IMG/VR virus record: IMGVR_UViG_3300025000_000055
Length of the DNA stretch: 64,000 nt
Direction: 5' to 3' (one strand)
DNA from: a virus
Lineage: Duplodnaviria > Caudoviricetes
The notes below the pieces were generated by a model that made no database searches, was not told where the DNA came from, and worked only from the letters and a program-made list of their open reading frames with translations. A program made the translations under genes and the position numbers. Positions within the stretch are counted from its first letter, which is position 1; the number at the start of each line of letters is the position of its first letter. Of this stretch, positions 15,708 to 64,000 are shown in pieces.

Positions 15708-15727
15708 AATAAATCACACCCCTCCCA

Positions 15728-16141: not shown

Positions 16142-16145
16142 GTTT

Positions 16146-16537
16146 TTACCTTCTTTTATAATTTATTTTTATATCATCAGTTATTTTTCCAAGATAATTT
16201 CCTAACTCTTCAACACTCATATTTGAAATAGATATTTTATCTAATTCATCTTGTATTATTTTTATTACTTGAGAGAGATTAAAACCTTCATGAAAATATA
16301 AAGTATCATTTTCTCTACAATACCCACATATACACCCCATGGTTTTTCCGTTAGAAATATGGGGAATGAAGTAGATTTATTATTATTATTTATTCCTATT
16401 AATAAATCTTCATCTTTTTTAGATAGTAAATCAGTATTCTTAACTTTAAATTTTATTAATTGTTCATTAATATCTGTCGATTTCTTTTCAATCTCAACTG
16501 CATAAATTTGATTTTCTGGTATTTTAAAATAATTCAT
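16146..16537 (-). pseudogene. Frameshifted paralog (ORFs 16265-16537 and 16146-16340 form one gene)
   Basis: The C4 run at 16335-16338 is C5 in the paralogous copy (15989-15993). Adding one base gives FLTEKPWGCICGYCRENDTLYFHE in frame. May be a sequencing error. Confidence 0.6.
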
Positions 16538-16926
16538 AATAAAACAAACCTCCTTTATATTTTTTATCTACTTCTATAATATATATTTATTTTTATTTAG
16601 AGAAATAACCACCGCATTTTATACATTTATAAATATTTATATTACCATAACTTTTATGTTCTTTTTTAATGATATTATGAATTTACGAAATTTTGAACAT
16701 TCACACTGATTAAAATTTTTCAGTAATTGTAATTCTTTTTTATAGAATTTTAAACGGTCTTCTTCTCTCATAATCAGATCAATTCCTGAATCTGTTATAT
16801 GACACCAAGGATAACTAGATATTCTATAGTGAGCATTTAATGAACCCCCTGAGTTATTTTAAGTTTATTATCAAATATACTAATAATTTTATTCAGTTAA
16901 TAAAACCCCCTATCACTAAAATTTTA

Positions 16927-19587: not shown

Positions 19588-19661
19588 AAGTTCACCTCCA
19601 AAAAGATAAAAAAATAATAAACTAATAAAATTAGTCTATTATTTTGTTAATTTAGTAATAA

Positions 19662-20636
19662 TTATTTAATTCTTTTTACTCCAGATTCTATAAATATACC
19701 TGTTATTATATTATTAGGTTTTTCTTTTGCTTTAATATATCCGTATTCTTTCTTTTCAGAAATTTTATGATTAAGTCCAGCATAAATACCATAATCATTT
19801 CCAGATTTAATAATACCTTTAGAATCTATAAATCCACCAGATTTAATAAAATTCTGTGCTATGATATTACCAAATGAAATTATATTTTGTTCGGTAACAA
19901 TACTTTCTTCAGCTTCAATAAAATCATTAGCTTTTATAAAACATTGCGAATAAATACCCCCTTCAGTAGTTCTAATAAAACCAGTAGATAAAATTGCTCC
20001 CTTTATAGTTCTAATTCCTTCATCTGCTTCAATATTATTACACATAATATCATAATTTACATCTATATCTAATTCAGATTTTATATTCTTTTTAGAAAAA
20101 AGAGTGCCTCCACATTTAATATCAATAGATTCAATATTACCAAATGAAATTATATTATTGCTAACATTGAGTTCATCAAGACACATAATATTACCTAAAG
20201 CAAATACTGTCCCTTTACAAATAATTTTTTCTGCAATAATATTTCCAGTAACAAAAATATTTTTAGATACATTAATTTCATCAATAACATTTAAATTCCC
20301 ATTAACAAAAATATTATTATCAGTTATTAAATTTTGTAGTTTATTATTTCCATTATTATTAGTAATAACATCTTTAAAATCATACATAAGTTTTATAAAA
20401 CAATCTAATGGATCTATTAATTGATGTTCTTCTTTAAATAAAATATTAAATATATCAGAAAGTTGACCACCTTCAGGAAATCTATCCATAAACCATGAAA
20501 GAAAATTATTATATATTTGAACATGTTGTAAAACACCAAATATTTCATTTTCTTTATTAAATCGTATTTTTATAAAATATTTAAGAAAATCATCATACTC
20601 AGTTTTTTCTTTTAACATATCAATTGTAATTTTCAT
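19662..20636 (-). CDS. Beta-helix repeat protein (bactofilin/polymer-forming-like)
   Basis: Periodic GNI/I.A.G.I repeats over about 200 aa. Confidence 0.55.
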   Translation of the reverse strand: MKITIDMLKEKTEYDDFLKYFIKIRFNKENEIFGVLQHVQIYNNFLSWFMDRFPEGGQLSDIFNILFKEEHQLIDPLDCFIKLMYDFKDVITNNNGNNKLQNLITDNNIFVNGNLNVIDEINVSKNIFVTGNIIAEKIICKGTVFALGNIMCLDELNVSNNIISFGNIESIDIKCGGTLFSKKNIKSELDIDVNYDIMCNNIEADEGIRTIKGAILSTGFIRTTEGGIYSQCFIKANDFIEAEESIVTEQNIISFGNIIAQNFIKSGGFIDSKGIIKSGNDYGIYAGLNHKISEKKEYGYIKAKEKPNNIITGIFIESGVKRIK

Positions 20637-50604: not shown

Positions 50605-50636
50605 ATTTTATGAAACTAACGCACAGAAACTGAATG

Positions 50637-51876
50637 TTAATTGTTAGCCAAAAACCAAGAAATATAGTCACCCATACGAGCAAATAATGCATTGGTTGGA
50701 TGTAAGTCATAAGTAACAGACTCAATATCACCTAAATAAATTGATTCGTTTAAGCTATTTATACCAATGTTGTTATACCAGTCACACACAGGACACCCAT
50801 ACAATTCACCAACAGTCTTAATCGCGTTTACATAGTCAACACTTAATTTACCTTCATTATTGTACGTTGCTGTCGTATCAAAATAATAACCCGGAATCGG
50901 TGTTACTAAATAAACCCTCATTGTCGGTTTAGTGGTTAGAATTTTTTCAATGCTGGCCTGTAATGCCCCATAAAATGTATTAGTATTAAACACTGAACCA
51001 ATTGGTTGTATTGTGCCTAAAGCAATTGCTTGTAAATGGTCATTTGCCCCCACTTGTTATTGTTACAGCATTACCATCGTAAATATGAGTATTTATTATT
51101 GCGTAAATTTCTGGCATAGTTTTACCACCAGAGCCTTTATTAAGGATGCTACAACCTAAAATTTCCCTCATATACGTTTGATATCCCTTTACTGATTGTC
51201 CTGATTCTATGTGTGTTGCTGCAAAAACACCACCATCATAAGCAGTAATAGAATCACCAAATGTTACGAAAGTTTTTCCTGCCCATTTACTTTTTGTTGA
51301 TGGGTCAACACTTTCACTACTCACATAACTTCCAGCTATACCTAAATACGGTATAAATTGACTAATGGGTGTTAACTCATGCCCTCCAATAATCAGGGTT
51401 CCTTCTCTGAAATACAGATTATAAAAATCTACCATATCATCAACCATTATATCAAGAAGAACATGTAGATACCTATAGTTATTGGGGTTGCTCCACTCAA
51501 CAGATACCAAAGCGTCTAACTGCTGTTTTACTCCTATATTGTATGTTCCATAGGAGATATACGGAGGGGTTAAGGCTTGACTGGTTCCTAATGTTCCAGC
51601 TACAGCGCTGCTTGTTAAATACAACTCAGCCAAAACAGTATTTATCCTTGGGTCACTACTATACATTTTTGCTTTATGTTGAATTGTTATTGTTCCACTT
51701 AATTCCTCCAAAACAGACGCTAAGTCATAGATAATAGTTACATAAACAGTAGTCCCACTAGATCGTTTTGTGTGTATAAAATCCCATGTAACAGAATTAT
51801 TTTCCAAGGCACTTACAGCGGTCTGAAGTATTTTTATGTTTTTTCTTGCTTTACTATCTACTGGTAGTATCAACAT
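50637..51876 (-). pseudogene. SGNH/GDSL hydrolase tail-associated protein split by a +1 frameshift (ORFs 51040-51876 and 50637-51053)
   Basis: Block I FGDSIT, block II NKGSGG and block V DLHPT. Removing one G from the G5 run (51047-51051) restores block III TSGANDH. Confidence 0.75.
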
Positions 51877-52308
51877 TTATACTGCCCCCTTCCAGTAAAC
51901 ACCTTCTCCATCATTATCGGCATCAATTTTGAGAGAGTTTAGGTTGGAAACTGACCAAACGGTTATATCATCGGCTAAAAGCGGCTTGGCATCTGTTTTT
52001 AATCCGTCCTTGGGATAAATGTAAATGTTCCCAGTGTTAGTTGACATTGCTTCAATTATTACTCCCTCACCACATCCTTGGTCTATTGCGAGTAATTCAG
52101 GTGTACCTGCTACTGTAACAGTTTTTATCCCAGCTATTGCAACTGTTCTACCAGTTAGTTTACTATTAGTTTCTAGTGTTCCATCACTACTATGTTTCTG
52201 AGGTATAATTAACCCAGAAGATAATACTGAATAAGGAATTTGTTTTATAGCCATACTATTAGCAGGATCTGTATAAAACACTTTCTTTGGTAAACCAAAC
52301 ATTAACAT
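51877..52308 (-). CDS. Constant-leader small tail-region protein, copy 1
   Basis: First 53 aa identical to 62482-62883. AAGGAG RBS and late motif at 52335-52346. Confidence 0.75.
   Translation of the reverse strand: MLMFGLPKKVFYTDPANSMAIKQIPYSVLSSGLIIPQKHSSDGTLETNSKLTGRTVAIAGIKTVTVAGTPELLAIDQGCGEGVIIEAMSTNTGNIYIYPKDGLKTDAKPLLADDITVWSVSNLNSLKIDADNDGEGVYWKGAV
52148..52308 (-). repeat. 161-bp repeat identical to 62482-62642, in inverted orientation
   Basis: Base-by-base comparison. A 59-bp core also occurs at 54252-54310. Confidence 0.92.
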
Positions 52309-52419
52309 ATATATCTCCTTTCTTCTTTCATATTTATTTATATGTTTTAATTGGATATTAGCTACAAAGAATGTAAATAAAGATGAATAAAAAATAAAGA
52401 TGGTGGCCCCTAATTAATT

Positions 52420-53850
52420 TTATAATAACAGATTACCCACAATTTTCCCCCTATGCTTAATTCTAGTCAATGCTATTTCTGGCATTTCCCATACACTATC
52501 AAAATCCCAATTTTCATAAGTTGATTGAGAATACATCTCTAATGTAGTTTTAGGAATACCTTTCATTGTATCATCTTGATAAGAGGTCTCCATATTATAA
52601 TAACAGTTTGTTACAATCCCTGTACCTACCCATGCTAAATATTGCCAACCAATAAGACCACCAACATTAATTCCAGAACCATTAACTTTACCTATTGAAT
52701 AGCAATTTTTTAATGCACAATCACCCATACCCATAAATCCGCCAACACTTTCATTAGTTTCACTTGTCACACTACCTAGAGCATAACAATCTTCTATAGG
52801 TGCTTCCCAACCAGTACCAGTAAAACCACCAACATATCTTTTTCCTGTAACATTACCAGTAGAAAAACATTGTTTTATATTAGAAGTATAATCAGTAAAA
52901 GCTATAAATCCTCCAGCATGTTCTGCATTTCCAGTTATATTCCCTCTTGCAAAAGACCTTAAAATAGGGCATTGTAAATAACAAACTAAACCAGCCGCAT
53001 ACCTACCATTGGACATTACAGCTCCAGTTGCATAGCAATCTTCAATACTTCCTTCAGTTCCAGTATGAACTATAAAACCACCAGCGGAAGCATTATCTAC
53101 AGTAGTACCAGTAGAAGTTACGTTACCTGTTGCATAACAATTTTTAATTGGTATAGATGAATAAGAGTTAGCTATAAAACCGCCAGCTTTATATTTAGCA
53201 GTAACATCACAATTAGAAAAACAATTATGAATATTACTATAGTTACCAACAACTAAACCACCAGCATCACCATTAGTTATATTTATACTTCCAATAGAAT
53301 TACAATATTTAATTTCAGCATAATTGTCTGTACAAATACCACCAGAGTTATATTCTGAAACTATATTCACATCCACAGTACAATAACATATCTCCCCATT
53401 TTCCCAGTTTCCTGGGGATATACAAGAATTACCACTTACATAGCAATTTATTATTTTACCTTCATGATATTGTTTAATAATAGCACCATTACCACCAGTA
53501 TCAGCATTTACTACTCTTAAATTTTTTATTATTCCAGTAGAATGAGTACCAGTAAATATTCCTTCACCAGTTAGACCAATAATTGCATAACCATTACCAT
53601 CATAAGTATTATCAATTAAACCATTTGGTGGTCCTACTAAAGCTGTCCATTCACCACTGTTGGTTAAATCTAAATCATTCATTTGAATATAGTTTCCAGC
53701 CATATTATTAGCTACTGCAAGTAAATCATCTAGATTATAAATTCCTATATACCCTTCAGGAACCTCTGTCAATAATATAACTTCTTTATAACCAATAAGA
53801 GAATTATCTATATTAAATAATTTTCTCCATTTTAAAAATGGGTATTTCAT
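52420..53850 (-). CDS. GLUG-repeat beta-helical adhesin / tail-fibre-like protein
   Basis: YIQMNDLDL...YDGNGYAI N-terminus followed by many (A)GG(F/L)xG...CYATGNVT repeats. Confidence 0.75.
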   Translation of the reverse strand: MKYPFLKWRKLFNIDNSLIGYKEVILLTEVPEGYIGIYNLDDLLAVANNMAGNYIQMNDLDLTNSGEWTALVGPPNGLIDNTYDGNGYAIIGLTGEGIFTGTHSTGIIKNLRVVNADTGGNGAIIKQYHEGKIINCYVSGNSCISPGNWENGEICYCTVDVNIVSEYNSGGICTDNYAEIKYCNSIGSINITNGDAGGLVVGNYSNIHNCFSNCDVTAKYKAGGFIANSYSSIPIKNCYATGNVTSTGTTVDNASAGGFIVHTGTEGSIEDCYATGAVMSNGRYAAGLVCYLQCPILRSFARGNITGNAEHAGGFIAFTDYTSNIKQCFSTGNVTGKRYVGGFTGTGWEAPIEDCYALGSVTSETNESVGGFMGMGDCALKNCYSIGKVNGSGINVGGLIGWQYLAWVGTGIVTNCYYNMETSYQDDTMKGIPKTTLEMYSQSTYENWDFDSVWEMPEIALTRIKHRGKIVGNLLL

Positions 53851-53887
53851 ATTTAAGTAGCTATTAATATTAACACCCTCTTCCTCT

Positions 53888-54409
53888 TTATAAACTATAC
53901 CCCCAAATATTTAATTCAGTAATTGTGTTAGAACCACCGGCAGATACAACAAGACTAATAGAAGTACTTATTGTTCCTTTTAAAATAGGAACAGAAGATA
54001 AAAGACCAACTCTTTCTCCCGATAATGAATCTTTTCCAATAATATCATAAAATTTTTCAATTATTCCATCTTTCAATTTAATAAATATGTCATTGACAGC
54101 TGTAGCATTACGTAAACACACAAGATAACCTAAAACATAATGAACTTTTTCTTCAATTGCGTCTATAATAGAAATTTGTTCTGAATCAATAGAGCTTGTT
54201 GTATGAGAAATGAAAGGAATTGCATTCAATGGTAATGGTATACTATTAGTTCCAGTTAGTTTACTATTAGTTTCTAGTGTTCCATCACTACTATGTTTCT
54301 GAGGTATAATAATACCTGATGGTAATATAACATGTGGTATTTGTTTTATAGCCATATTCATATTAGTATCCAAATGAAAAACCTTCTTTGGTAACCCAAA
54401 CATTAACAA
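53888..54409 (-). CDS. Constant-leader small tail-region protein, copy 2 (diverged leader)
   Basis: MLMFGLPKKVF...IIPQKHSSDGTLETNSKLTG leader with a different C-terminus. TTG start. Confidence 0.75.
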   Translation of the reverse strand: MLMFGLPKKVFHLDTNMNMAIKQIPHVILPSGIIIPQKHSSDGTLETNSKLTGTNSIPLPLNAIPFISHTTSSIDSEQISIIDAIEEKVHYVLGYLVCLRNATAVNDIFIKLKDGIIEKFYDIIGKDSLSGERVGLLSSVPILKGTISTSISLVVSAGGSNTITELNIWGYSL

Positions 54410-54436
54410 ATAGTATCACCTTCCTTTTATATTTAT

Positions 54437-55600
54437 TTAATTGTTTTGTTGAATACTAAGTACAAAAAATGTAAATAATGCCCTTCTAAAATTATTTATA
54501 GTAGCAAGTCTTTGAGTCTTTTTATATGTTCCTAATTCTTCTAACCAACCATCAAGAACTTTTTTAATTTTAATAATGTTTTTATCAGAAGTATTAGATT
54601 TTTTATATAGTTCTAGACAATAAACTAAGAATTCATTACTACCAATTTGTTGAATTGTATTTTGCGAATCAAATAAAAATAAAAATAATATACTATCAAC
54701 AATAGTTCTTATTTCATCCCTTTTTTCTTGTACTAACAAAGTTTCTATATAATTTCTTAATTCACTTACACTAACTTGACATAATTTAGCTGATAGTGTA
54801 ATTGAATTTATATTAGGTCCATTTACTATTAATTTAAGAACTACAGCATTAGTAATTCTTTCTATAGCATATATATTACTATCAGATTCATGATAATTAC
54901 CTTCTTCAAAATTATCACTTTCTAAATTCATATATTTTTTATCTTTTTGATTAATATAAAATTCATTACTAATTTTTCTCATTAACATATTTAAGCGAGT
55001 TTTTATAGCTTGAATATAATCAACTATTTCCTTATCACTACCATTAACTAATTCATCACTATACTTTCTATCACTAACAAAAGAAGTATCTATTAAAGCA
55101 TTATGAATTGTACCAGTTTGTTTAATCTTAAATTTATTAGATAAATTGTTAATAGTATAATTCATAATATTTTCATTAGGTTCAAATTTAAAAAATTTAT
55201 AATGTAATGAAGGATACATTGATAAAGTTAAATAAATTAAAACTATATCGGCCATATCATCAAGTTTTTTAATTTTAAAGTATCTAATAGCTAAACAACA
55301 AGCTGAATTAAATGGGTTATTCATTATTTGCCACTGAGTTTTAATGGTAGGTGAATTTTTAATAATTTCTTTAATCTTTAATGGATCAACCTCAATAGCT
55401 TTATATACTTCATTCATATCATCTTCTGAAAATATAGTTCTATGAATAGGACCAATTGTAGATAATTTATTACCATTTTTATCTATATATCTTCCAACTG
55501 CTTTTTTTAAATTTAAAACATTTTCTTTTTTTGATAATCCTCTTTCTATTAAAGGATAGAGTTCAGTAATCAATACTTTATCATTAGGCAAATTTATCAC
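54437..55600 (-). CDS. Hypothetical protein (late-promoter driven)
   Basis: 387-aa ORF with an AACA-N6-TA motif on the minus strand at 55621-55632. Confidence 0.75.
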   Translation of the reverse strand: MINLPNDKVLITELYPLIERGLSKKENVLNLKKAVGRYIDKNGNKLSTIGPIHRTIFSEDDMNEVYKAIEVDPLKIKEIIKNSPTIKTQWQIMNNPFNSACCLAIRYFKIKKLDDMADIVLIYLTLSMYPSLHYKFFKFEPNENIMNYTINNLSNKFKIKQTGTIHNALIDTSFVSDRKYSDELVNGSDKEIVDYIQAIKTRLNMLMRKISNEFYINQKDKKYMNLESDNFEEGNYHESDSNIYAIERITNAVVLKLIVNGPNINSITLSAKLCQVSVSELRNYIETLLVQEKRDEIRTIVDSILFLFLFDSQNTIQQIGSNEFLVYCLELYKKSNTSDKNIIKIKKVLDGWLEELGTYKKTQRLATINNFRRALFTFFVLSIQQNN

Positions 55601-55669
55601 AACCTTTATAATTTTATCATTAATATTATGTTAAAGAACAAAGTTATAATAGAAAAAAGAGGGGATTTG

Positions 55670-56863
55670 GTGGAAATGAGTATTTTATTTAATAAAAATA
55701 TTAAACAAGTTATACCCATTAAAGAAACTTATTATGGTAAATCTAAAGAATTTATTAAAATTGAAAATGAATTAAAAAAAATAATTGATATAGTAAGGGA
55801 TGATGAGAGTAAAAATATATTTAAAGCTAGGATTGATATAGATAATTCTTCACCTAATCAAAATATGCAAGAAATTTTTACAAAATATTTTCAAATAAAG
55901 GGTATAAAAATTCATTGGTCTGATAATGTACCTAATGCATATACTAGAATAGTATCATTACCAATTATGTATTTAGTTAATCAACAAAAATTACAAGAAA
56001 GTAAAAAATTTATAAATGATGAACTTAATATATATATCTTTTTATCAACAACTTTAATTTCAACTTGTGATTTAAATGAAAAAGAATTACTGGCTATAAT
56101 TCTTCATGAAATAGGACATAATTTTACAATAACACCATTTTATTTTTTATCTACACTTCCATTATTAGTAGTATCACCATTTATTTGGTTTTTTACACCA
56201 TTATTTCAAACTACCATATCTGAATTAATGGTGAATGTTGGTAATTTCTTCAAAAAATATTTACCATTTATATATAATTTCAAAAATATGTTAGAAAACT
56301 TTCTACATAGTATTTCTAGGTCATTAGCAGTAAACCCAGAAAAGTTATTTAGAATAATTCAATTTTTACCTGTTTATATGTTTGAAATGATTCCTGGGTA
56401 TTATGAAGAAAAATTTTCAGATACATTTGCAGCTTCTTATGGGTATGGTAAAGATTTATCTTCAGCTTTATATAAATTATCCAATCAAAAAAAATCATTA
56501 TATAATAAACTTATAGTTGAAACACCTATTATAAATTTAGTTGCCGATTTTTATAAAATTATGATTGATTGCGTCGTATCATTTATTGATCCACATCCAA
56601 ATGTTCAAACTAGAATTGTTATAATGATGGATAAACTAAAAAGAGATTTAGACGATCCTAATATACCCAAAGATTTAAAAATAGAATTAAAAAATAGTAT
56701 TAAATATATTGAAAATTATTATAATGAATTTTATTTAAATGACCCATATACTAAAAAACATAAAATATTTACTCAAATGACATTAGAGTTATATGACAAA
56801 ATATTAGGTACTAAAGATTGGAGAAGTGGTATGAGTAATTTATTTAAGAACTATGAAGCATAA
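55670..56863 (+). CDS. Zn-metallopeptidase-like protein
   Basis: LHEIGH (HExxH), downstream EEKFSDTFAASYGYG, and HP..QTRI, an M48-like pattern. GTG 55670 follows GAGGGG. Late motif at 55637. Confidence 0.7.
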   Translation: MEMSILFNKNIKQVIPIKETYYGKSKEFIKIENELKKIIDIVRDDESKNIFKARIDIDNSSPNQNMQEIFTKYFQIKGIKIHWSDNVPNAYTRIVSLPIMYLVNQQKLQESKKFINDELNIYIFLSTTLISTCDLNEKELLAIILHEIGHNFTITPFYFLSTLPLLVVSPFIWFFTPLFQTTISELMVNVGNFFKKYLPFIYNFKNMLENFLHSISRSLAVNPEKLFRIIQFLPVYMFEMIPGYYEEKFSDTFAASYGYGKDLSSALYKLSNQKKSLYNKLIVETPIINLVADFYKIMIDCVVSFIDPHPNVQTRIVIMMDKLKRDLDDPNIPKDLKIELKNSIKYIENYYNEFYLNDPYTKKHKIFTQMTLELYDKILGTKDWRSGMSNLFKNYEA

Positions 56864-56870
56864 AAAAATA

Positions 56871-56903
56871 AAAGTTACGTGGATTATTTCACGTAACTTT
56901 TAT
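56871..56903. repeat. 33-bp hairpin/terminator, identical copy at 57348-57380
   Basis: AAAGTTACGTGGATTATTTCACGTAACTTTTAT at both positions. Confidence 0.85.
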
Positions 56904-56911
56904 TTTATATA

Positions 56912-57259
56912 TTAAGCTGGTATATTTTCTTCAGAAAAACAAATTAAATCAATGACTATCTCTCTATTATTTTCATTAATAACCATATCAAATTTAACAA
57001 CATCCCCAACTTTCATTGACGGACAAATTAAATTCGAGTATGCATCAGGTAACTTACCTTGTTCTCTTTCAATAAAACCATGATTCTTCTTTATTAATTT
57101 AATAACACCGATACAATTTTCTTCTGATATTGTGCCCGGTAAATAATGAGTTTCTTGTTTAAAAACCTTATCAGTGATTTTAATACTGCTACTAGTCTTA
57201 CTTATAATACCTTCATTAAAAACCTTTTTTGACTTTCTATTATTTTTATTTCTTGACAT
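56912..57259 (-). CDS. Cold-shock/S1-like OB-fold protein
   Basis: GVIKLIKKNHGFIERE...KVGDVVKF resembles the CSD RNP1 pattern. ATG 57259 follows GGGGG. Confidence 0.5.
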   Translation of the reverse strand: MSRNKNNRKSKKVFNEGIISKTSSSIKITDKVFKQETHYLPGTISEENCIGVIKLIKKNHGFIEREQGKLPDAYSNLICPSMKVGDVVKFDMVINENNREIVIDLICFSEENIPA

Positions 57260-57379
57260 TAAAAAACCCCCCTTAAAATATTGTATTATCAATTTAATAA
57301 TATATACATATAACTTTCTTTAAAAATTATGATAAATATATGGAATGAAAGTTACGTGGATTATTTCACGTAACTTTTA

Positions 57380-57634
57380 TTATAATTCATGAATATGAAT
57401 AAATACCGGCCACCAACCACCACTAATGACTGATTTTTCACCAACTACAGATTTTGTAGATTTAATATAAATTAATTCTAACTTAAAACCACATTCTTTT
57501 ATTTTTTCAACAACTTCATTTTCTGTCATTTTTTCCATGTCTATTGTTTTACATAATTTATATATAAAACAATCAGAAGTGTTACACAATTCTTGAAATT
57601 GTATACAAGACCTACCAAAAACAAGTATTAACAA
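57380..57634 (-). CDS. Hypothetical protein
   Basis: 84-aa ORF. Confidence 0.5.
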   Translation of the reverse strand: MLILVFGRSCIQFQELCNTSDCFIYKLCKTIDMEKMTENEVVEKIKECGFKLELIYIKSTKSVVGEKSVISGGWWPVFIHIHEL

Positions 57635-57672
57635 TATCTAAAAACATAAATAAAACCCCCTTCTTTTATATA

Positions 57673-58140
57673 TTAAAAATCATCACCCAATAATCTCATC
57701 ATATCATTTTCATATTGTTCATCCATTTCTTTTGCAACATCGTTCCAATATTGACTTGAATATTCCTCATTATTTTTTCTCTCATATTCAAGTCTTTGTT
57801 GTTCTTTTTTTGTCATACTCTTTATTTTTACAATTTTCATTCCACCACTAGGGGTTTTTATTTTTATTTCTGAATTTGTAGTCCACTCAAATTTGTCACC
57901 TTCATAAAATACCATTGCGGAACTACCATTAAAAGTAACGAATATCATTGGTTTCTTTTTACTAAAAAGTTTAGAACCAATTAAATGATGTCTTGATACT
58001 TTTGCCCGTAATTCATTTCTTAAAAATATTTCTTTTCCTTCATGAATTTTATATCTACCAAAATGTGATAATTCCATCACATTTCTCAATGCAGTTAAAA
58101 CAGAATTTAAGGTTAATATATTCAATGTCACTTTAATCAT
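57673..58140 (-). CDS. Hypothetical early protein
   Basis: 155-aa ORF with GGAGG RBS, early motif and leader hairpin. Confidence 0.65.
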   Translation of the reverse strand: MIKVTLNILTLNSVLTALRNVMELSHFGRYKIHEGKEIFLRNELRAKVSRHHLIGSKLFSKKKPMIFVTFNGSSAMVFYEGDKFEWTTNSEIKIKTPSGGMKIVKIKSMTKKEQQRLEYERKNNEEYSSQYWNDVAKEMDEQYENDMMRLLGDDF

Positions 58141-58295
58141 AATAAACCTCCTTAATAATCTAATAAGTATATTTATTTCCCCTTATTAGTGGGAATAATA
58201 TTTTATTCAATTAAATAATATATATTTATTTTAAATAAATATACTAAAAAAATAATATCTATGCAATTAAGGAACATAGATATTATTTAAATATT

Positions 58296-58997
58296 TTAAC
58301 TTATATTCATATTAATTTGTTGTTTATTTTGAGGTAATTTTTTAATAATCATATCTTTGTTTGTAATATCAACTTCTAACTGTTCAATATTGTTTGAAAT
58401 AATAGTAGAATTCATTAATACTTTTTCGATTTCAATAAAACTAACATATTCACACAATTCATCACCTTCACATATAAATATAAAGTTATCTTTTATATTA
58501 TCATATCGTAATCTATACATACTACACATTATACAATCTTTTTTAGAACCCGTAAAACAACATACTGATTGAAATGAATTAGTCCAATATTTTTTATACC
58601 ATATTTCTTCTTTATCAGATAATATTAAGTCATAACCTCTTTGTTCATTCACTTTTCCTCTATAGTTTATTACTCTTATTTTCTTTATATATCCTTGTGG
58701 TATTACAATTTCTTTATTTGATGATTGAGATGTTATATACGTAAAATTTATTATTAAATTATTTGAAGTACGAAATGTTGGATATATTGTTGACACTCTA
58801 TGTATTGCTTCAATAATACTAAAAATATTAGTTAATATTGGAATATAAGAAGAATCACTATTTATAAATATAGATGAAAATAATGGTATAAAATAAAATT
58901 TATAATTCACATTCATTGATAAATCTAATTCGCCTATTTTATAGGCCCAACCACTAACTACTTTAGACATAATTCCCTCCTTTGATAATATATCCAT
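58296..58997 (-). CDS. Hypothetical early protein
   Basis: About 225-233 aa. GGAGG RBS before MSKVVSG, with early motif and leader hairpin. Confidence 0.6.
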   Translation of the reverse strand: MDILSKEGIMSKVVSGWAYKIGELDLSMNVNYKFYFIPLFSSIFINSDSSYIPILTNIFSIIEAIHRVSTIYPTFRTSNNLIINFTYITSQSSNKEIVIPQGYIKKIRVINYRGKVNEQRGYDLILSDKEEIWYKKYWTNSFQSVCCFTGSKKDCIMCSMYRLRYDNIKDNFIFICEGDELCEYVSFIEIEKVLMNSTIISNNIEQLEVDITNKDMIIKKLPQNKQQINMNIS

Positions 58998-59102
58998 AAA
59001 GGATATTTACCCAACAGTATTTTTATTTCCCCTATTGGTGGGAATATTATTTATTTCCTCATAATAATATATATGTGAATATTTTAATTATATTAAATAA
59101 AA

Positions 59103-59140
59103 AATATATAGATGGAGTCATATGACTCCATCTATATATT
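59103..59140. terminator. Perfect 38-bp palindrome, terminator
   Basis: AATATATAGATGGAGTCAT|ATGACTCCATCTATATATT. Confidence 0.65.
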
Positions 59141-59151
59141 TATGAAATAAT

Positions 59152-59463
59152 TTAGTTCATATATAAAATAAAATTAATAAGTAAATGTAATGATTGACCA
59201 ATGAATAAATAACCTTTTGGATTTTTATATCCATTTTTAGCTTTATCATAGTCTATTATCATATGTGATATAATTAAAATTGGCACTTTCCATAAAGCAA
59301 ATATACCTAAAAATTTGAAACATAAAGAAAGTATTAAACCATAAATTATACTATGTGCTAATAAACTAGAAAAATGTTTATCTTTAGTTTGTGTAAGGAA
59401 ATCTCCTTGTAATGGATAATCTGCAAGATAATGAGCTAATATAACCCATAATAAATTTTCCAT
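59152..59463 (-). CDS. DUF3307-like membrane protein
   Basis: AHYLADYPLQ, AHS, SHMIIDY.K and QSLH motifs with hydrophobic segments. Confidence 0.75.
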   Translation of the reverse strand: MENLLWVILAHYLADYPLQGDFLTQTKDKHFSSLLAHSIIYGLILSLCFKFLGIFALWKVPILIISHMIIDYDKAKNGYKNPKGYLFIGQSLHLLINFILYMN

Positions 59464-59510
59464 AAATTTATCACCCTCTATTTACTATTATATGGATAAA
59501 TTATCCATAT

Positions 59511-59918
59511 TTATTTTAATGAAAAAAAATCTTGAGCCAAATCTTTTAATTGTTCAATAGATATACAAATAATCTTTTGTACAGGATTATTTATATCAAT
59601 TTTTTCTTTATTTAAATCTTTTTCATAATTTACTAAAAACTCATCAATCCATTTTAATAATAATTCAGTTGTTATATATCCGTTATGTTCAGAACTTTTT
59701 TTACCTGTTATAGTATTTAAAAAGTTTCTCATATTTTCTTGATATGTATCATGAATAAATTTCTTTTCTCTACATTCTCTAAGAATTCTATAATAACTGG
59801 TTTTACTAATTTCCATGTTCTCACATATATTAATCTTAATATCACTAAGTTTTCTATTTTTATTTTTTAATTCATTATATAAAATAGAAAACTTATTAAG
59901 TATACCAACATCATACAT
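59511..59918 (-). CDS. Hypothetical protein, possible HTH
   Basis: ICENMEISKTSYYRILREC. GGAGG RBS. Confidence 0.55.
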   Translation of the reverse strand: MYDVGILNKFSILYNELKNKNRKLSDIKINICENMEISKTSYYRILRECREKKFIHDTYQENMRNFLNTITGKKSSEHNGYITTELLLKWIDEFLVNYEKDLNKEKIDINNPVQKIICISIEQLKDLAQDFFSLK

Positions 59919-60077
59919 TATGAAACCACCTCCTTTTCAAATATTTAATTATTATTTAATTGTTTAATTAACTATAATAAATTAATTTTATTACTTAAAT
60001 AAGTAAATTCTTTTACTTAAACATTTTTTTAAATAAACAATTAAATAAAAAATACTTATTTAAGGAGGCGTATAAAA

Positions 60078-60419
60078 ATGTTAACTAAACCAAAAGTTAT
60101 ATATCGTGGTCAGCCTGGCGCTGTAGAAGCAAAAATATATACTGTTCCTGAAGGAAATGGGAATCCAATACTGGTAAAAGAAATTATTATTACCAATACA
60201 ACGGCGGTGGCTGCTACAATAACATTGTCTGTAGTTCCTGCTGGTGGTACTGCCGGAGTAACTAACCGTATAAAAGTTGCTGAAGAGATTGCAGCTAGTA
60301 AATCAGAAACAATTGAAGTTGAGATTCCGATGCAAATTGGTGATTTCATTAGTGCAGTACAGGGAACTGCCGGTTCACTAACTCTAACTATTTCAGGTGA
60401 AGAAATTTTAGCATATTAA
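60078..60419 (+). CDS. Small beta-rich tail-region protein (paralog A)
   Basis: Similar to 62109-62438 (PKVxYRG...YTVP...LSVVP...GDFIS.xQGT). AGGAGG RBS and late motif at 60036. Confidence 0.7.
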   Translation: MLTKPKVIYRGQPGAVEAKIYTVPEGNGNPILVKEIIITNTTAVAATITLSVVPAGGTAGVTNRIKVAEEIAASKSETIEVEIPMQIGDFISAVQGTAGSLTLTISGEEILAY

Positions 60420-60450
60420 GTATTAAAAAATTGAAAGGTGTGTTAAATTA

Positions 60451-61719
60451 ATGAGCTACTTGATTATAAATCAGAATGACACTGTTATTAATTCAGAGGT
60501 TGTTAATCCAATTCTATCTAAGAGTGATGTTGGGATTGAAGTCAACGGCACCAATGTTAAACTAAAAATAGGTGACGGTATTAGTAGATATAGTTTATTA
60601 AATGTAATGTGGTCAGGTACTATTACAGAATTTCAAAATACTTTTATTGGAATAAATAAAAGGATAGAAGATTTAATAGACACTAATACTAGTATTGATG
60701 TAATCATACAAGATATTGTAAGTCTTAATGAAATAGTTGAAACTTTGAAAGTAGAACCAAGTAACTATATATATGTTGGTAAAAATGGTAACGATACAAC
60801 TGGTAATGGTAGTGCAGGTACACCATATCTAACAGTTAGTAAAGCAATTAATGAAGCTTCATCTGGAACTACAATATTTATATTTCCTGGAACATACATT
60901 GAAAATTTAACATTAAAAGCAGGGGTTAATTTAGTTGCACCTTCTAAATATTCAACATATATCAGAGGAAAAGTAACTGTAGATATAACAGGTACTGTGT
61001 ATTTAGAAAAAATCATATTCCAAAATAATTTAGATATTGTAATTGATTTTAAAGGTACTAATGTTCAGAATGTACAAATGTTAATGTGTAATGTTGAAAG
61101 CTTAACAGATAATGATGGAAATGCTATTAATTATACTAATACTAATGCTAACAGTAAATTATCAATTGCTGATGGTGTATTAACAGTATATACAAGTACT
61201 GGTGGGGCAAGAGCTTTTTCTAGTGCAGCTACAGCTTTGGGAACAGTTTTATTAGATAAAACAACATGTCAAATATTAGATGATATTGATAATATTTGTC
61301 TAGATATTGCAGGTGGTGTTTCATTTATACACACACAAGACCAAGTTAAAGGTCAAATAGTAGTATCTGATACTGCTAGTACCACTTTTGCTATTTTGTC
61401 AATGTATACTACAACAGTGCCAGTATTAATTACAAATTCGACTGGTATTTCCACATTATCTCAAATTATGGCTGTGACTACTTCCACTCCATGTTTTTCT
61501 GGTACTGGTGTATTCATATTCTTTGCAATTGGATATGGGAGTACAGGAGTTGGTGGGGCTGCTACATTAAATGGTAATGCCGGAGCAATTGCTCTTGAAA
61601 TGGCTCCAATAAAATTTAGGGCATCAGCATTATATGCTACAGTTCAAGATGGTCTTTTGGAATATGATGGAACACATCTATATTTTACTATAGGTGAAAC
61701 AAGAAACACACTAATATAA
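60451..61719 (+). CDS. Tail fibre/depolymerase-like protein with an Mtd-N-like anchor and pectin-lyase-like beta-helix
   Basis: NPILSK..VGIE...KLKIGDG N-terminus, then YVGKNGNDTTGNGS..PYLTVSKAI...IFIFPGTY. Confidence 0.7.
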   Translation: MSYLIINQNDTVINSEVVNPILSKSDVGIEVNGTNVKLKIGDGISRYSLLNVMWSGTITEFQNTFIGINKRIEDLIDTNTSIDVIIQDIVSLNEIVETLKVEPSNYIYVGKNGNDTTGNGSAGTPYLTVSKAINEASSGTTIFIFPGTYIENLTLKAGVNLVAPSKYSTYIRGKVTVDITGTVYLEKIIFQNNLDIVIDFKGTNVQNVQMLMCNVESLTDNDGNAINYTNTNANSKLSIADGVLTVYTSTGGARAFSSAATALGTVLLDKTTCQILDDIDNICLDIAGGVSFIHTQDQVKGQIVVSDTASTTFAILSMYTTTVPVLITNSTGISTLSQIMAVTTSTPCFSGTGVFIFFAIGYGSTGVGGAATLNGNAGAIALEMAPIKFRASALYATVQDGLLEYDGTHLYFTIGETRNTLI

Positions 61720-61770
61720 TATTTAATAATAAAATTATTTTTTATAATTATCAAAAAGGTGTGATAAAAA

Positions 61771-62109
61771 ATGAGTTATTTAGTTATAAACGAAAATGAA
61801 ATTATTGTTAATTGGGAAAATATCAATCCTATTCTATCTAATGGAAATGTAGGAATTGATATTGTTAATGATAATGTGAGTATTAGAATTGGTAATGGTG
61901 TTAGCATATACAGTGAATTATCTAAAATATGGTCAGGTACTAATATAGAGTTTCAAAATATTTTTATTTTTATAAGTAAAAAAATACAAAATATAATAGA
62001 TACCCATATATCAACTGAAGCAGCATTAAAAAATGTTACAGATATCGAAACACAAACAAATAAATTTAATGATTATCAAATAAGACAATTAATGGGGGTT
62101 AATTGGTAA
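61771..62109 (+). CDS. Short Mtd-N-like anchor protein (paralog of the 60451 N-terminus)
   Basis: NPILSNGNVGID...IRIGNG..YSEL..IWSGT. Confidence 0.65.
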   Translation: MSYLVINENEIIVNWENINPILSNGNVGIDIVNDNVSIRIGNGVSIYSELSKIWSGTNIEFQNIFIFISKKIQNIIDTHISTEAALKNVTDIETQTNKFNDYQIRQLMGVNW

Positions 62110-62438
62110 TGGTAACTACACCTAAAGTATTATATAGAGGGAGAATAAATACAGCTGAACAAACTGTATATACGGTACCAGTTAATAAAATAGCTATAAT
62201 TACAGGAATTACTTTATGTAATAATGGTGTTGATATGAGTACATTAACATTATCAGTAGTACCTAATGGTGATGTAGCTAGTTTGGATAATCGTATAATG
62301 AATATGGAAGAATTTGATTTCAAATCATCTATAAGTCTTAAATACAATATACCTATGCAATCAGGAGACTTTATCAGTGGTTTACAAGGAACTGAAAATG
62401 CAATAACTATCACTATATCTGGTGTAGAGATAGAATAA
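62109..62438 (+). CDS. Small beta-rich tail-region protein (paralog A')
   Basis: ATG overlaps the upstream TAA. Similar to 60078-60419. Confidence 0.7.
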   Translation: MVTTPKVLYRGRINTAEQTVYTVPVNKIAIITGITLCNNGVDMSTLTLSVVPNGDVASLDNRIMNMEEFDFKSSISLKYNIPMQSGDFISGLQGTENAITITISGVEIE

Positions 62439-62481
62439 ACAACATATAAATAAATATAAAAGAAGAAAGGAGATTTATGAT

Positions 62482-62883
62482 ATGTTAATGTTTGGTTTAC
62501 CAAAGAAAGTGTTTTATACAGATCCTGCTAATAGTATGGCTATAAAACAAATTCCTTATTCAGTATTATCTTCTGGGTTAATTATACCTCAGAAACATAG
62601 TAGTGATGGAACACTAGAAACTAATAGTAAACTAACTGGTAGTACACTTCAGGAAGAAAAAACGCAGGCAAATGCTACCGCAGGCGTAGTCACTTTTTCC
62701 GCAAACATTACAACTATTGAAATTTTAAATACAGATACAGTTAATACAGGTGTTTTTACTGTTAACGAAATACCTATTACAGTACCTCCTACTGGTATAT
62801 GGAAAGATGGAGTTGGTGGAACTCCAGGTGCAACAGTCACCGTTGCTGGTTCAACCGCTTACATCTTACATAGATTTTCGTAG
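62482..62883 (+). CDS. Constant-leader small tail-region protein, copy 3
   Basis: Leader identical to 51877-52308, with a different C-terminus. Late motif at 62441-62452. Confidence 0.75.
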   Translation: MLMFGLPKKVFYTDPANSMAIKQIPYSVLSSGLIIPQKHSSDGTLETNSKLTGSTLQEEKTQANATAGVVTFSANITTIEILNTDTVNTGVFTVNEIPITVPPTGIWKDGVGGTPGATVTVAGSTAYILHRFS

Positions 62884-62896
62884 GAGGTGATAGATA

Positions 62897-64000
62897 ATGG
62901 GATATAAGCAAATAGGAATAGCAACCAACACAATAGACAGTAGTAAATTAACTACCGCATCCGTCACACCAGATAAAACAGATTTCATCAAAGAAGTTAA
63001 AAATTTATTTGACCATACGGATGCAAAAGTACTTAACCACAGAATTTTAGTGGAAACAGGTGGCACAGACGGTACTGCATACAGTGATACACATATGACT
63101 ACAGGCTATATTCCGGTTAGACCGGGAGATAACTTAATATGTTCATATTTGAACACCTCCGGGGTAGTAAGTACAGTTGTTTATTATATCGTAGCAGCTT
63201 ACGACAAGAATCAAAAACGAATAGTTTTTACGACTGTAACCAGTTCGACATATGTTGTACCTGCAAATGCTGAATATGTGCGTTTCTCTTTCAATACCAC
63301 CTACTATGCCAGAAAAGCATATGTTCAAGTGGCTGTTGGAACTGAAATCAGTCTTCCAACAAAATACAAAAAAAGAATGGATATATCACTCTTAAATAAG
63401 CCATACAAGTCTATTAAAGATACAATGGCCGAATTGGTGCAAAATAGTTTAATGTTAACTGGTACAAGCACAGTTAACATTAAACTTGTTGGCGATAGTA
63501 TCACTCATGGTGTGGGTGGTACTGGATTTATAGAAGACGGGGATTTAATTATCTCTGGATTTAACCGTAACCCTAATGGTTATTGTTGGGCTAATCTTTT
63601 TAAATCCTATATGGAAGCTAAATTTAATTGTGTGGTAACAAATAACGCCTGTCGTGGCACACACTCAGGGTATTTGAGACAATATTGGGATACTCTAGTC
63701 AGTCCTACTGATAATATTATCATATGTATGTATGGAACAAATGACCGGGGATCAGGTGCCTACAGTGCATTATTAGAAAATTTACAGCTTTTTCTAGACA
63801 GAGTAGATATAGATAATCAAAAAATAATCTTGATGAGTAGTATTCAAGCATCTGTAACAAATGATGCAACTTATACCTTTCATATGGAAGATGTTGACAA
63901 TGCAATAATGTCAATAGCAGCCGCAAACAACGTAGAATATATTTCTTTATTTAAGTTGTTTAGAGATTATATTGATGCGAGAGGTATTAGTTTTGATACA
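62897..64000 (+). CDS. SGNH/GDSL hydrolase tail-associated protein (runs off the window; absent from the ORF track)
   Basis: GGAGG RBS, ATG 62897 (MGYKQIG...), open to the window end. Block I VGDSITHG, block II NNACRG, block III MYGTND. Confidence 0.8.
   Translation, partial: MGYKQIGIATNTIDSSKLTTASVTPDKTDFIKEVKNLFDHTDAKVLNHRILVETGGTDGTAYSDTHMTTGYIPVRPGDNLICSYLNTSGVVSTVVYYIVAAYDKNQKRIVFTTVTSSTYVVPANAEYVRFSFNTTYYARKAYVQVAVGTEISLPTKYKKRMDISLLNKPYKSIKDTMAELVQNSLMLTGTSTVNIKLVGDSITHGVGGTGFIEDGDLIISGFNRNPNGYCWANLFKSYMEAKFNCVVTNNACRGTHSGYLRQYWDTLVSPTDNIIICMYGTNDRGSGAYSALLENLQLFLDRVDIDNQKIILMSSIQASVTNDATYTFHMEDVDNAIMSIAAANNVEYISLFKLFRDYIDARGISFDT

What the first reader, a model, noticed from the sequence alone, without database searches (positions are those of the whole stretch)
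51877..62883. Constant-leader / variable-tail cassette system in the receptor-binding region, with a 161-bp perfect inverted repeat
Seen: three genes begin with the same 53-aa leader (MLMFGLPKKVF...HSSDGTLETNSKLTG) and diverge abruptly after it. Copies 1 (52148-52308, -) and 3 (62482-62642, +) are 100% identical, and their promoter and RBS are nearly so. Copy 2 shares an identical 59-bp core (54252-54310). Each gene heads a different payload: SGNH esterase (50637-51876), GLUG adhesin (52420-53850), and a second SGNH esterase (62897 onward). Inference: the leader is both a virion-docking peptide and a recombination handle. It would allow payload exchange between phages, inversion of an 8-10 kb segment (copies 1/2 versus 3), or deletion or amplification of the GLUG cassette (copies 1 and 2, direct). 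Caveats: no site-specific invertase is visible, and a copy 1/3 inversion changes operon context rather than protein sequence.
Basis: partly seen in the sequence, partly recalled or inferred. Interest (0 to 1): 0.72.

Follow-up and report, generated by a model that had tools for sequence, protein, structure and literature searches.

The report
Shared leader on swappable phage cassettes
Four late genes of an uncultured giant groundwater phage start with the same short protein piece and then switch, at one fixed 13-base DNA joint shared with many unrelated phages, to different imported modules, so this looks like a plug-in point for exchanging virion surface enzymes between phages.

Summary
Three leader copies lie in the window. 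A fourth lies 4.3 kb upstream of it, beside a broken Xer-type recombinase. The copies form two types (A = 1 and 3; B = 2 and 4). Each type is a 100% identical inverted pair that starts at an AR9-type late promoter.

Every leader ends at the in-frame string AACTAACTGG (followed by TAG in three of the four copies), which encodes LTG. The 13-base form of that string, in the same frame, joins unrelated front and back halves in at least 15 other phage genes from the same aquifer. There it lies 0.5-2.2 kb upstream of a palindromic site whose left arm it matches.

From the first base of the joint, copy 3 and its esterase are 93% identical to a cassette in an unrelated 63-kb phage contig. Related jumbo phages carry this leader on other payloads. 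One tail is YomS/XepA-like.

My reading: the leader is the resident, lineage-specific half of a split virion protein, and the joint is the exchange point. Leader identity is kept by gene conversion.

The palindromic site and the recombinase were already flagged by this scan on neighbouring DNA. The in-frame 5' joint is what this report adds.

The parts
52148..52346 (-). Leader unit copy 1 (type A). Late-promoter motif AACATATAAATA at 52335-52346, RBS, leader codons at 52150-52308, in-frame joint AACTAACTGGTAG at 52148-52160.
51877..52308 (-). Gene 1 (P0002, 143 aa): leader plus tail 1. The tail is a beta-sandwich in the ESM Atlas model and has 41% GC.
50637..51876 (-). Payload 1: SGNH esterase, a paralogue of the intact 407-aa esterase behind copy 4. 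It is split into 278 + 138 aa by one extra G in the G5 run at 51047-51051.
50614..50624 (-). Half-site remnant, GTGCGTTAGTT on the minus strand. It matches the spacer end plus right arm of the palindromic cassette-end site and lies 14 nt after the stop codon of payload 1.
52420..53850 (-). Payload 2: GLUG-motif protein, 476 aa.
53888..54409 (-). Gene 2 (P0005; 171 aa from the ATG at 54403): type B leader plus tail 2. The tail is 42% identical to the C-terminal half of a 201-aa protein in loci L054 and L057.
54249..54445 (-). Leader unit copy 2 (type B). Late-promoter motif AACAATTAAATA at 54434-54445. Joint variant AACTAACTGGAAC at 54249-54261.
62441..62642 (+). Leader unit copy 3 (type A). 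Late-promoter motif at 62441-62452, leader codons at 62482-62640, joint AACTAACTGGTAG at 62630-62642.
62482..62883 (+). Gene 3 (P0003, 133 aa): leader plus tail 3.
62630..64000 (+). Imported cassette 3: tail 3 plus SGNH esterase 2 (62897 onward, running off the window). It is 92.9% identical in DNA to L081:10169-11539, from an unrelated 63-kb phage contig. Homology starts at the first base of the joint.
60078..62438 (+). Resident fibre-type genes upstream of copy 3. They are a 113-aa and a 111-aa paralogue pair, a 422-aa protein (Mtd_N-like start plus a beta-helix of tailspike or pectate-lyase type) and a 112-aa protein with the same start. The order is shared with sister phage L010.

Best explanation
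The leader is the resident, lineage-specific front half of a two-part late virion protein. It comes with its own AR9-type late promoter and RBS and encodes about 51-53 aa.

Each leader ends at a fixed in-frame DNA joint, AACTAACTGG followed by TAG in three copies and AAC in copy 2, encoding Leu-Thr-Gly plus Arg, Ser or Thr. Downstream of the joint sit imported, higher-GC cassettes. Each cassette has a small beta-sandwich tail (YomS/XepA-like in at least one case) and is followed by an enzyme gene (SGNH esterase or GLUG protein).

Cassettes move between phages of this aquifer by crossovers at two fixed points. One is the joint at the 5' end. The other is a palindromic site at the 3' end whose left arm has the same bases as the joint. 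A Xer-type tyrosine recombinase is encoded next to that site in many phages and is present here as a frameshifted copy behind leader copy 4.

Inside this genome the promoter-plus-leader unit now exists four times. Gene conversion keeps the copies alike, giving two 100% identical inverted pairs.

Shown: the anatomy, the cross-phage joint, the imported cassettes and the conversion patch.
Inferred: that the leader anchors the protein to the virion; that the tail carries the downstream enzyme, by analogy with the HFTV1 turret base and head; and that the recombinase rather than homologous recombination makes the crossovers.
For: 1. Four leader genes form two identical inverted pairs, and identity starts at the motif AACA-N6-TA. 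That motif is the AR9 late-promoter consensus (PMC5312081).

2. The leader is confined to this phage lineage. A profile search of 1.84 billion proteins found, besides the four copies here and two very long (916 and 4171 aa) proteins matched only by short stretches and not followed up, only P0006 and P0007. tblastn added P0015.

3. Relatives have other cassettes at the same two positions.

4. The tail of P0004 matches YomS (6i5o, E 3.8e-6) and the XepA C-domain (6i56, E 1.2e-3). The same tail, at 76-86% identity, follows three unrelated N-termini. DNA homology runs only from the joint to a few codons past the stop.

5. The 13-mer joint occurs 42 times, in 19 distinct contexts, in 866 kb of fetched loci, where about 0.03 would be expected. 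In 18 of the 19 contexts it is in frame. It lies 540-2205 nt upstream of the palindromic site on the same strand.

6. The residue after LTG is Arg or Ser, written AGA or AGT, so the DNA is kept where the residue is not. CTA supplies only 9-13% of Leu codons.

7. The left arm of the site (ta.c.AACTAAC) matches the joint and its upstream bases (Ta..cAACTAAC).

8. Window 62630-64000 is 92.9% identical to L081, starting at the first base of the joint.

9. Cassettes have 35-41% GC against 25% for the window.

10. Recombinase homologues (56-82% identity) follow the site in at least 10 IMG/VR loci. Homology between those loci covers the recombinase and not the cassette.

11. Gene conversion is seen directly. 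In L017, a strain variant of copy 4, a type B leader carries a 10-28 nt type A patch. Types A and B differ at 27 of the first 100 nt and at none of the next 58 (P about 9e-9).

12. In the archaeal virus HFTV1, a turret base protein with an XepA-like fold carries a deacetylase-like head encoded by the next gene (PMC12494034). In SPbeta, yomS directly precedes the fibre-type gene yomR.
Against: - No recombination product was seen. No N-module was found joined directly to the right half of the palindrome, which would be an empty platform.
- In a scan that started from the joint, none of 111 new loci had the full palindromic site within reach. Many of those hits are probably chance 14-mers, but the joint may be more widespread than the site.
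- The motif LTG(R/S) is also conserved as protein. Several joint-like positions use other codons. Shared descent plus ordinary homologous recombination at a conserved linker could therefore explain much of the pattern.
- The recombinase in this phage is broken.
- Only one of the four tails is detectably YomS-like by sequence.
- Virion location and the anchoring role are untested.
- XepA itself was described as a lysis-associated cytotoxic protein, and the authors refer to its absence from the mature phage (PMC6834076).
Confidence: 0.6

Rival explanations
1. This is ordinary modular evolution with no site-specific step. The LTG linker is a conserved structural hinge of one wide family of fibre or adaptor proteins. 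Modules are swapped by phage homologous recombination at the short conserved linker, and the nearby palindromic site and recombinase belong to a separate system that only marks 3' ends.
For: - LTG(R/S) is conserved as protein, and some joint-like positions have drifted to other codons.
- No hybrid or empty sites were found.
- The joint occurs in many loci that lack the full site.
- This phage has a RecA-like gene, and its introns show rampant gene conversion (earlier notes; a leader conversion patch was seen here).
Against: - The shared stretches are only 13-23 nt, with unrelated DNA on both sides, for example copy 1 against L031. That is short for RecA-type exchange.
- The codon string is identical across phages of different base composition, and AGA/AGT alternate after it.
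- The same 8-13 nt form the left arm of the palindrome.
- Joint, site and recombinase recur in one fixed order.
Confidence: 0.25
2. The inverted leader pairs work as a flip-flop switch. Homologous recombination between copies 1 and 3 (10.2 kb apart) or copies 2 and 4 (about 59 kb apart) inverts the segment between them and changes operon context or expression. Both isomers coexist in the population.
For: - The two pairs are perfect inverted repeats of 170 and 194 nt, which is long enough for recombination.
- Contig L006 joins the upstream context of copy 2 to the tail and esterase of copy 4. An inversion between copies 2 and 4 would create exactly that junction.
- Assemblers break at the repeats.
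Against: - An inversion changes no protein, because promoter and leader are identical on both arms.
- Every assembly that spans copy 1 has the reference order.
- L006 is a single 2-kb contig from a variant strain. It is equally well explained by a cassette swap at a position where relatives also differ, or by a chimeric assembly.
- Contigs break at any repeat longer than the k-mer.
Confidence: 0.1
3. The leader is a capsid-targeting propeptide like the T4 internal-protein targeting sequence. It would load the tails into the head and then be cut off by the prohead protease.
For: - A constant N-terminal peptide on otherwise unrelated small proteins resembles T4 IPI-III and Alt (from my own knowledge).
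- The phage has an S77-type prohead protease.
- Earlier notes report protease-site-punctuated cargo proteins in this genome.
Against: - The type A leader's only Glu (E46) sits in the context T-L-E, not the (L/I)-x-E pattern of T4-type proteases (sequence; the rule is from my own knowledge).
- In other phages the equivalent N-modules are 60-430 aa fibre-type domains.
- The genes lie among fibre-type genes, and each is coupled to an enzyme gene that has no leader.
Confidence: 0.04
4. The identical leader copy is an assembly or scaffolding artefact.
For: Metagenome assemblies can duplicate or mis-join repeats.
Against: Copy 1 with unique flanks on both sides is seen in two other assemblies. The first 95 nt of copy 3 joined to its own upstream gene is seen in a further one. 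These come from different samples and assemblers and are 99.97-100% identical to the window.
Confidence: 0.01

Closest known systems
Rin shufflon of Bifidobacterium prophages, and the Min, Gin and Cin tail-fibre inversion systems (Mavrich et al. 2018, PMC6109161)
   Same: A constant N-terminal part of a receptor-binding-type protein is joined to alternative C-terminal parts at a short asymmetric DNA site inside the reading frame. In Rin, a tyrosine recombinase gene sits at the edge of the variable region.
   Different: Those systems have one promoter and one constant part, with promoter-less variable segments that invert within a single genome (phase variation). Here each variable part has its own complete promoter-plus-leader copy, so all four can be made at once. 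The joint is shared by unrelated phages. Each cassette also carries a downstream enzyme gene and a separate palindromic 3' site. The local recombinase is broken. No inversion was seen.
Integrons (IntI, attI, attC-ended cassettes)
   Same: Variable cassettes sit between a fixed upstream point and a palindromic 3' site, next to a tyrosine recombinase. The same cassettes appear in unrelated genomes.
   Different: The upstream point lies inside a coding sequence and fuses the cassette in frame to a resident protein half. The recombinase lies downstream of the cassette. Most loci hold one cassette, not an array. The recombinase is Xer-like and not IntI. No circular cassette or attI x attC-type product was seen. 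This scan noted the 3' site and the recombinase before (e1-5379670, e1-5379663).
Conserved N-terminal anchor domains on interchangeable tailspikes and fibres (K1-5/SP6-type and CBA120-type phages; from my own knowledge; see also scan note e1-1938516)
   Same: One phage makes several receptor-binding or depolymerase proteins that share a short N-terminal docking part and differ afterwards. Exchange between phages happens at the boundary.
   Different: Here the shared part sits on a separate small protein of 130-170 aa, not on the enzyme itself. The boundary is one fixed DNA string shared by phages with unrelated anchors.
XepA (PBSX) and YomS (SPbeta), PDB 6i56 and 6i5o (Freitag-Pohl et al. 2019, PMC6834076)
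   Same: The tail of leader copy 4 aligns with all of YomS and with the XepA C-terminal beta-sandwich. Leader residues 37-55 align with the end of the XepA linker. Like yomS, the gene directly precedes a fibre-type or enzyme gene.
   Different: There is no XepA N-terminal domain; a 50-aa lineage-specific leader takes its place. The other three tails are not detectably related by sequence. The pentameric state is not known here.
HFTV1 capsid turret: base protein gp30 with an XepA-like fold, plus a deacetylase-like head gp31 (PMC12494034)
   Same: A small XepA-fold protein and a carbohydrate-esterase-type enzyme are encoded by neighbouring genes. The base plugs into the virion through a short stalk and carries the enzyme.
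   Different: HFTV1 is an archaeal virus. The likeness is by fold only, as reported in that paper, and was not tested here. Whether the proteins here sit on the capsid or on the tail is unknown.

Membership tests
XepA/YomS family (Pfam PF27453) | Sequence match to the YomS or XepA C-terminal beta-sandwich domain | tested here: met
   Met for P0004 (copy 4, outside the window): 6i5o E 3.8e-6 and 6i56 E 1.2e-3, with a precomputed PF27453 hit. Not met by sequence for copies 1-3. ESM Atlas models give beta-sandwich tails for copies 1 and 2.
XepA/YomS family (Pfam PF27453) | Pentameric disc assembly | not testable with these tools
   The single-sequence AlphaFold2 model of P0002 failed (pLDDT 31). 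No oligomer model was made.
Shufflon or invertible tail-fibre segment (Rin, Min, Gin, Cin, R64 Rci) | Short crossover sites inside the reading frame between the constant and variable parts | tested here: met
   The in-frame 13-nt joint lies at the constant/variable boundary of three of the four genes (10 nt, then AAC, in copy 2) and of at least 15 other phage genes.
Shufflon or invertible tail-fibre segment (Rin, Min, Gin, Cin, R64 Rci) | One expressed constant part, with promoter-less variable segments in both orientations | tested here: not met
   Each tail has its own promoter, RBS, start codon and leader.
Shufflon or invertible tail-fibre segment (Rin, Min, Gin, Cin, R64 Rci) | Coexisting inversion isomers within one population | tested here: inconclusive
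Assemblies show only the reference order at copy 1. One 2-kb contig (L006) has an alternative junction for copies 2 and 4.
Shufflon or invertible tail-fibre segment (Rin, Min, Gin, Cin, R64 Rci) | Intact dedicated recombinase in the same genome | tested here: not met
   The Xer-type gene behind copy 4 is split by a frameshift. Intact homologues exist in other phages.
Integron | IntI-type integrase with an adjacent attI and promoter upstream of the cassettes | tested here: not met
   The recombinase lies downstream of the cassette and its site. Pfam shows only generic Phage_integrase and SAM-like domains. The IntI-specific insertion was not examined.
Integron | Cassettes that each end in an imperfect palindromic recombination site | tested here: met
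   The site CTAACG-N6-CGTTAG lies 4-200 nt after the last gene of the cassette behind copy 4 and in the L020-L025 and L081 loci. A half-site follows payload 1. No site was found after the GLUG gene. The end of cassette 3 lies outside the window.
Integron | Cassette excision and integration products (circles, empty attI) | tested here: not met
   No N-module was found joined to the right half of the palindrome among 106 distinct sites. Circles cannot be seen in assemblies.
T4-type capsid-targeting sequence | N-terminal peptide ending in a prohead-protease site, (L/I)-x-E | tested here: not met
   The type A leader's only Glu (E46) is in the context T-L-E. The protease rule is from my own knowledge.

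The most novel reading that the evidence does not exclude
The 13-nt joint would be a true recombinase target lying inside a reading frame. A Xer-type tyrosine recombinase would then swap the back halves of virion proteins, together with their downstream enzyme genes, between unrelated phages. It would do so by paired crossovers at the in-frame joint and at the palindromic 3' site, which would make this a natural form of recombinase-mediated cassette exchange for host-recognition modules. This jumbo phage would have used it four times.
Probability: 0.4. Interest if true: 0.85.

Novelty: new variant of a known kind. Interest (0 to 1): 0.66.

Why it matters
Phage host range is set by surface proteins built from exchangeable parts, but how the parts are exchanged cleanly and in frame between unrelated phages is mostly unknown.

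Here the seam can be read in the DNA. One 13-base string, always in the same frame, joins unrelated front and back halves in many phages of one aquifer. It matches the arm of a recombinase site. A near-identical cassette sits behind that seam in a 233-kb jumbo phage and in an unrelated 63-kb phage.

If the recombinase acts on the seam, this is a testable natural system for in-frame module swapping, and a ready-made design rule for re-targeting phages in the laboratory.

It also gives the XepA/YomS family, whose role is unsettled, a concrete hypothesis: a small adaptor that carries an enzyme on the virion.

Tried and rejected
- Read-level test of inversion. No reads were examined.
- Complex prediction of P0004 with the 407-aa esterase gave no verdict (score 0.00, controls not run). 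This is not evidence either way.
- AlphaFold2 on P0002 without an alignment failed (pLDDT 31), so no fold search was run.
- Exact scans for the 53-nt leader core found nothing in IMG/VR or in the JGI metagenome contigs. The search for related loci with gene 1 found nothing.
- Look-ups of P0003, both full-length and from Met3, found nothing on record. What follows esterase 2 beyond the window end was therefore not seen.
- The whole genome is not held, and the L005 record is not searchable. Leader copies elsewhere in the 233-kb genome cannot be excluded, although protein searches found only four.
- No full palindromic site exists in the window, even allowing 2-3 mismatches.
- The search for empty platforms (an N-module running into the palindrome) found none.
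- The scan that started from the joint returned many probable chance 14-mers, and no new locus had a full site.
- The capsid-targeting-peptide reading and the artefact reading were considered and rated low; see the rival explanations.
- Both identical leader pairs are inverted. I considered this as a sign of selection against deletions, but it would arise by chance in 4 of 6 arrangements, so it carries no weight.

Full report
**What is there**

The window comes from an uncultured, AT-rich (25% GC) AR9-like jumbo phage from groundwater, on a 233-kb contig.

The reported repeat is real:
- The arms 52141-52310 and 62480-62649 are 170 nt long and 99% complementary, with 38 more bases at 95% just upstream.
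- Three ORFs share their first 53 residues and then lose all detectable similarity: 51877-52308 (-), 53888-54409 (-) and 62482-62883 (+).
- Each is followed by an enzyme-type gene. These are an SGNH esterase, a GLUG-motif protein and a second SGNH esterase.
- The first esterase is split by one extra G in a G5 run at 51047-51051. Four independent assemblies carry the same break.

**A fourth copy, and two leader types**

Locus L005 is a 177-kb scaffold from a sister sample. Its positions 14278-20492 are 100% identical to window 1-6215, so it shows the DNA just upstream of the window. An earlier scan note on the same genome describes the same block there.

That DNA holds a fourth leader gene, P0004 (163 aa). 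It is followed by an intact 407-aa SGNH esterase, a palindromic site, and a Xer-type tyrosine recombinase gene broken by a frameshift.

The four leaders fall into two types:
- Copies 1 and 3 (type A) are identical.
- Copies 2 and 4 (type B) are identical from -36 to +158.
- Both pairs are inverted.
- Types A and B differ at 27 of the first 100 coding bases and at none of the next 58. The chance of that under a uniform rate is about 9e-9.

In each copy, identity begins at an AACA-N6-TA motif. This is the late-promoter consensus of phage AR9 (PMC5312081). The repeated unit is therefore promoter, RBS and leader, about 200 nt in all.

The repeat is not an artefact. Other assemblies reproduce copy 1 with both flanks, or break at or just inside copy 1 or copy 3, as assemblers do at true repeats.

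**The copies exchange sequence**

L017 is a strain variant of the copy 4 locus from another sample. Its type B leader carries a type A patch of 10-28 nt. This is a gene-conversion tract caught in nature.

Earlier notes on this genome report the same behaviour for its group I introns.

In related phages the leader protein is conserved along its whole length, but the DNA has drifted at synonymous sites. The perfect identity of the last 58-59 nt across all four copies is therefore recent homogenisation and not a coding constraint.

**The leader belongs to this lineage and the tails do not**

A profile of the leader was searched against 1.84 billion proteins. Besides the four copies here, it found only P0006 and P0007, plus two very long (916 and 4171 aa) proteins matched only by short stretches, which I did not follow up. 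tblastn added P0015.

All three sit in related jumbo phages, at the same two genome positions as copies 2 and 3:
- A 299-aa leader protein follows the homologue of the 387-aa gene (the ORF at 54437-55600, just upstream of copy 2).
- A 167-aa leader protein has no enzyme gene after it.
- A 96-aa leader protein is followed by a collagen-like fibre.

Contig L006, from yet another sample, has the copy 4 tail and esterase at the copy 2 position.

Conversely, three of the four tails have relatives behind unrelated N-termini in other phages, and the fourth shares its first bases with one:
- Tail 4 is found at 76-86% identity behind three different N-termini. DNA homology runs only from the joint to a few codons past the stop.
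- Tail 2 is 42% identical to the back half of a 201-aa protein.
- Tail 3 and esterase 2 are 92.9% identical in DNA to a cassette in a 63-kb phage contig with an unrelated gene set. The homology starts at the first base of the joint.
- The start of tail 1 shares 23 nt with a 463-aa protein whose flanks are unrelated on both sides.

The cassettes have 35-41% GC, against 22-25% for resident genes.

**The joint**

All four leaders end with AACTAACTGG, followed by TAG in three of them.

I fetched 63 IMG/VR loci that contain the palindromic site CTAACGAA-NN-TGCGTTAG. In 866 kb of fetched DNA the 13-mer occurs 42 times, in 19 distinct contexts, where about 0.03 would be expected.
- In 18 of the 19 contexts it is in frame as Leu-Thr-Gly.
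- It lies 540-2205 nt upstream of the site on the same strand.
- It lies between N-modules and C-modules that are unrelated from one locus to the next.

Two observations point to conservation at the DNA level:
- The next residue is Arg or Ser, written AGA or AGT.
- CTA supplies only 9-13% of Leu codons in these phages.

As a control, 17 of 31 distinct LTG(R/S) sites in the same loci use other codons. Some of these look like decayed joints. The peptide is therefore also conserved in its own right.

The consensus left arm of the palindrome (ta.c.AACTAAC then G) equals the joint with its upstream bases (Ta..cAACTAAC then T).

Homologues of the recombinase, at 56-82% identity, follow the site in at least ten loci. 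Homology between those loci covers the recombinase and not the cassette.

Payload 1 in the window is followed by a right half-site, GTGCGTTAGTT, 14 nt after its stop codon. No full site lies in the window. By analogy with L081, the site for cassette 3 should lie near 64.3 kb, just outside the window.

**What the proteins may do**

The tail of P0004 is homologous to YomS and to the XepA C-terminal domain. Both form pentameric discs of beta-sandwiches. Their role is unsettled, and XepA was reported as cytotoxic (PMC6834076).

Leader residues 37-55 align with the end of the XepA linker.

In SPbeta, yomS directly precedes the fibre-type gene yomR.

In the archaeal virus HFTV1, a turret base protein whose only structural neighbour is XepA plugs into the capsid. 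It carries a deacetylase-like head encoded by the next gene (PMC12494034).

By analogy, I infer that the leader anchors these small proteins to the virion, that the tail holds the enzyme encoded downstream, and that the enzymes act on host surface polysaccharide. This step is inference. The one complex prediction gave no verdict, and no virion data exist.

**Inversion**

Inverted repeats of 170 and 194 perfect bases in a phage with its own recombinase should recombine. However, an inversion would change no protein.

Every assembly that spans copy 1 shows the reference order. The only alternative junction is L006, which is equally well a cassette swap. The read test could not be run. I leave inversion as possible and unproven.

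**Verdict**

The leader is the constant, resident half, and payloads are exchanged at its end.

The exchange point is a short joint shared across phages and tied to a recombinase site. Whether the recombinase or homologous recombination makes the crossover is open. I found no recombination products, and the joint is more widespread than the site.

The closest known systems are tail-fibre shufflons such as Rin (PMC6109161) and integrons. This system fails defining tests of both, so I class it as a new variant of a known kind.

The palindromic site and the recombinase were already reported by this scan on the neighbouring DNA (e1-5379670, e1-5379663). The in-frame 5' joint, the four-copy leader and the cross-phage cassette identity are what this report adds.

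Noticed in passing
window 51047-51051 (minus strand): One extra G in a G5 run splits SGNH esterase 1 at its GxND block. The same break is present in four assemblies from different samples. The gene is therefore either recently dead or read through by slippage.
   Followed up: partly
window 60451-61719 and 61771-62109: This is a second family with a constant start and a variable end. The 422-aa beta-helix protein and the 112-aa protein share an Mtd_N-like first 90 residues or so (DNA repeat 60553-60688 / 61873-62008, 74%). The sister phage L010 has only the short form.
   Followed up: partly
window 60078-60419 and 62103-62438: These are paralogous 113-aa and 111-aa proteins (phmmer E about 5e-26). 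They bracket the fibre-type genes. A 113-aa ORF also lies upstream of the XepA-like gene in an unrelated phage (L020), but its relation to these was not tested. No family or solved structure matches them.
   Followed up: partly
window 56867-56913 and 57335-57384: Two copies, 95% identical, of a 41-47 nt hairpin element (core GTTACGTGGATTATTTCACGTAAC) flank a single small ORF at 56912-57292. They look like paired terminators or the ends of a mini-cassette.
   Followed up: no
window 58172-58261 and 59021-59110: A 90-nt intergenic repeat (71% identical) containing a short CCCC...GGG hairpin lies upstream of two minus-strand genes. It is possibly a shared regulatory region.
   Followed up: no
L005:11724-11831 (about 2.5 kb upstream of window position 1): Directly after the 407-aa esterase comes a left arm plus spacer of the palindromic site. 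It is joined to an 80-nt orphan 3' end of another gene, and a full site follows. This looks like the scar of an earlier cassette replacement.
   Followed up: partly
L029 (Bacillus phage SPbeta, NC_001884, 40301-44393): In SPbeta, yomS is followed by yomR, yomQ, yomP, two small genes and then yomM, which is annotated as a site-specific integrase. The order (XepA-like gene, fibre genes, recombinase) is the same as in the groundwater loci.
   Followed up: no
L081 (IMG/VR contig 3300001242_000003), 2242-3199 and 10169-11864: An unrelated 63-kb phage carries two joint-to-palindrome cassettes 8 kb apart in the same orientation. One of them is the near-identical twin of the window's cassette 3.
   Followed up: partly
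payload N-termini: window 53850 (-), window 62897 (+), L005:10493, L022:1103, L027:3346, L011:394, L041: Most enzyme or fibre genes that follow a leader-type gene begin with a short helix-like MD..LLA motif, or have an (N/K)LF(N/D) motif within the first 40 residues, or both; esterase 1 (window 51876, -) shows neither clearly. The rest of each protein differs. The motifs may form a docking peptide.
   Followed up: no
window 55628-56863 and L005:7787-9025: Two diverged copies of an M48-like peptidase-type protein (411 and 412 aa) each sit near a leader cassette.
   Followed up: no
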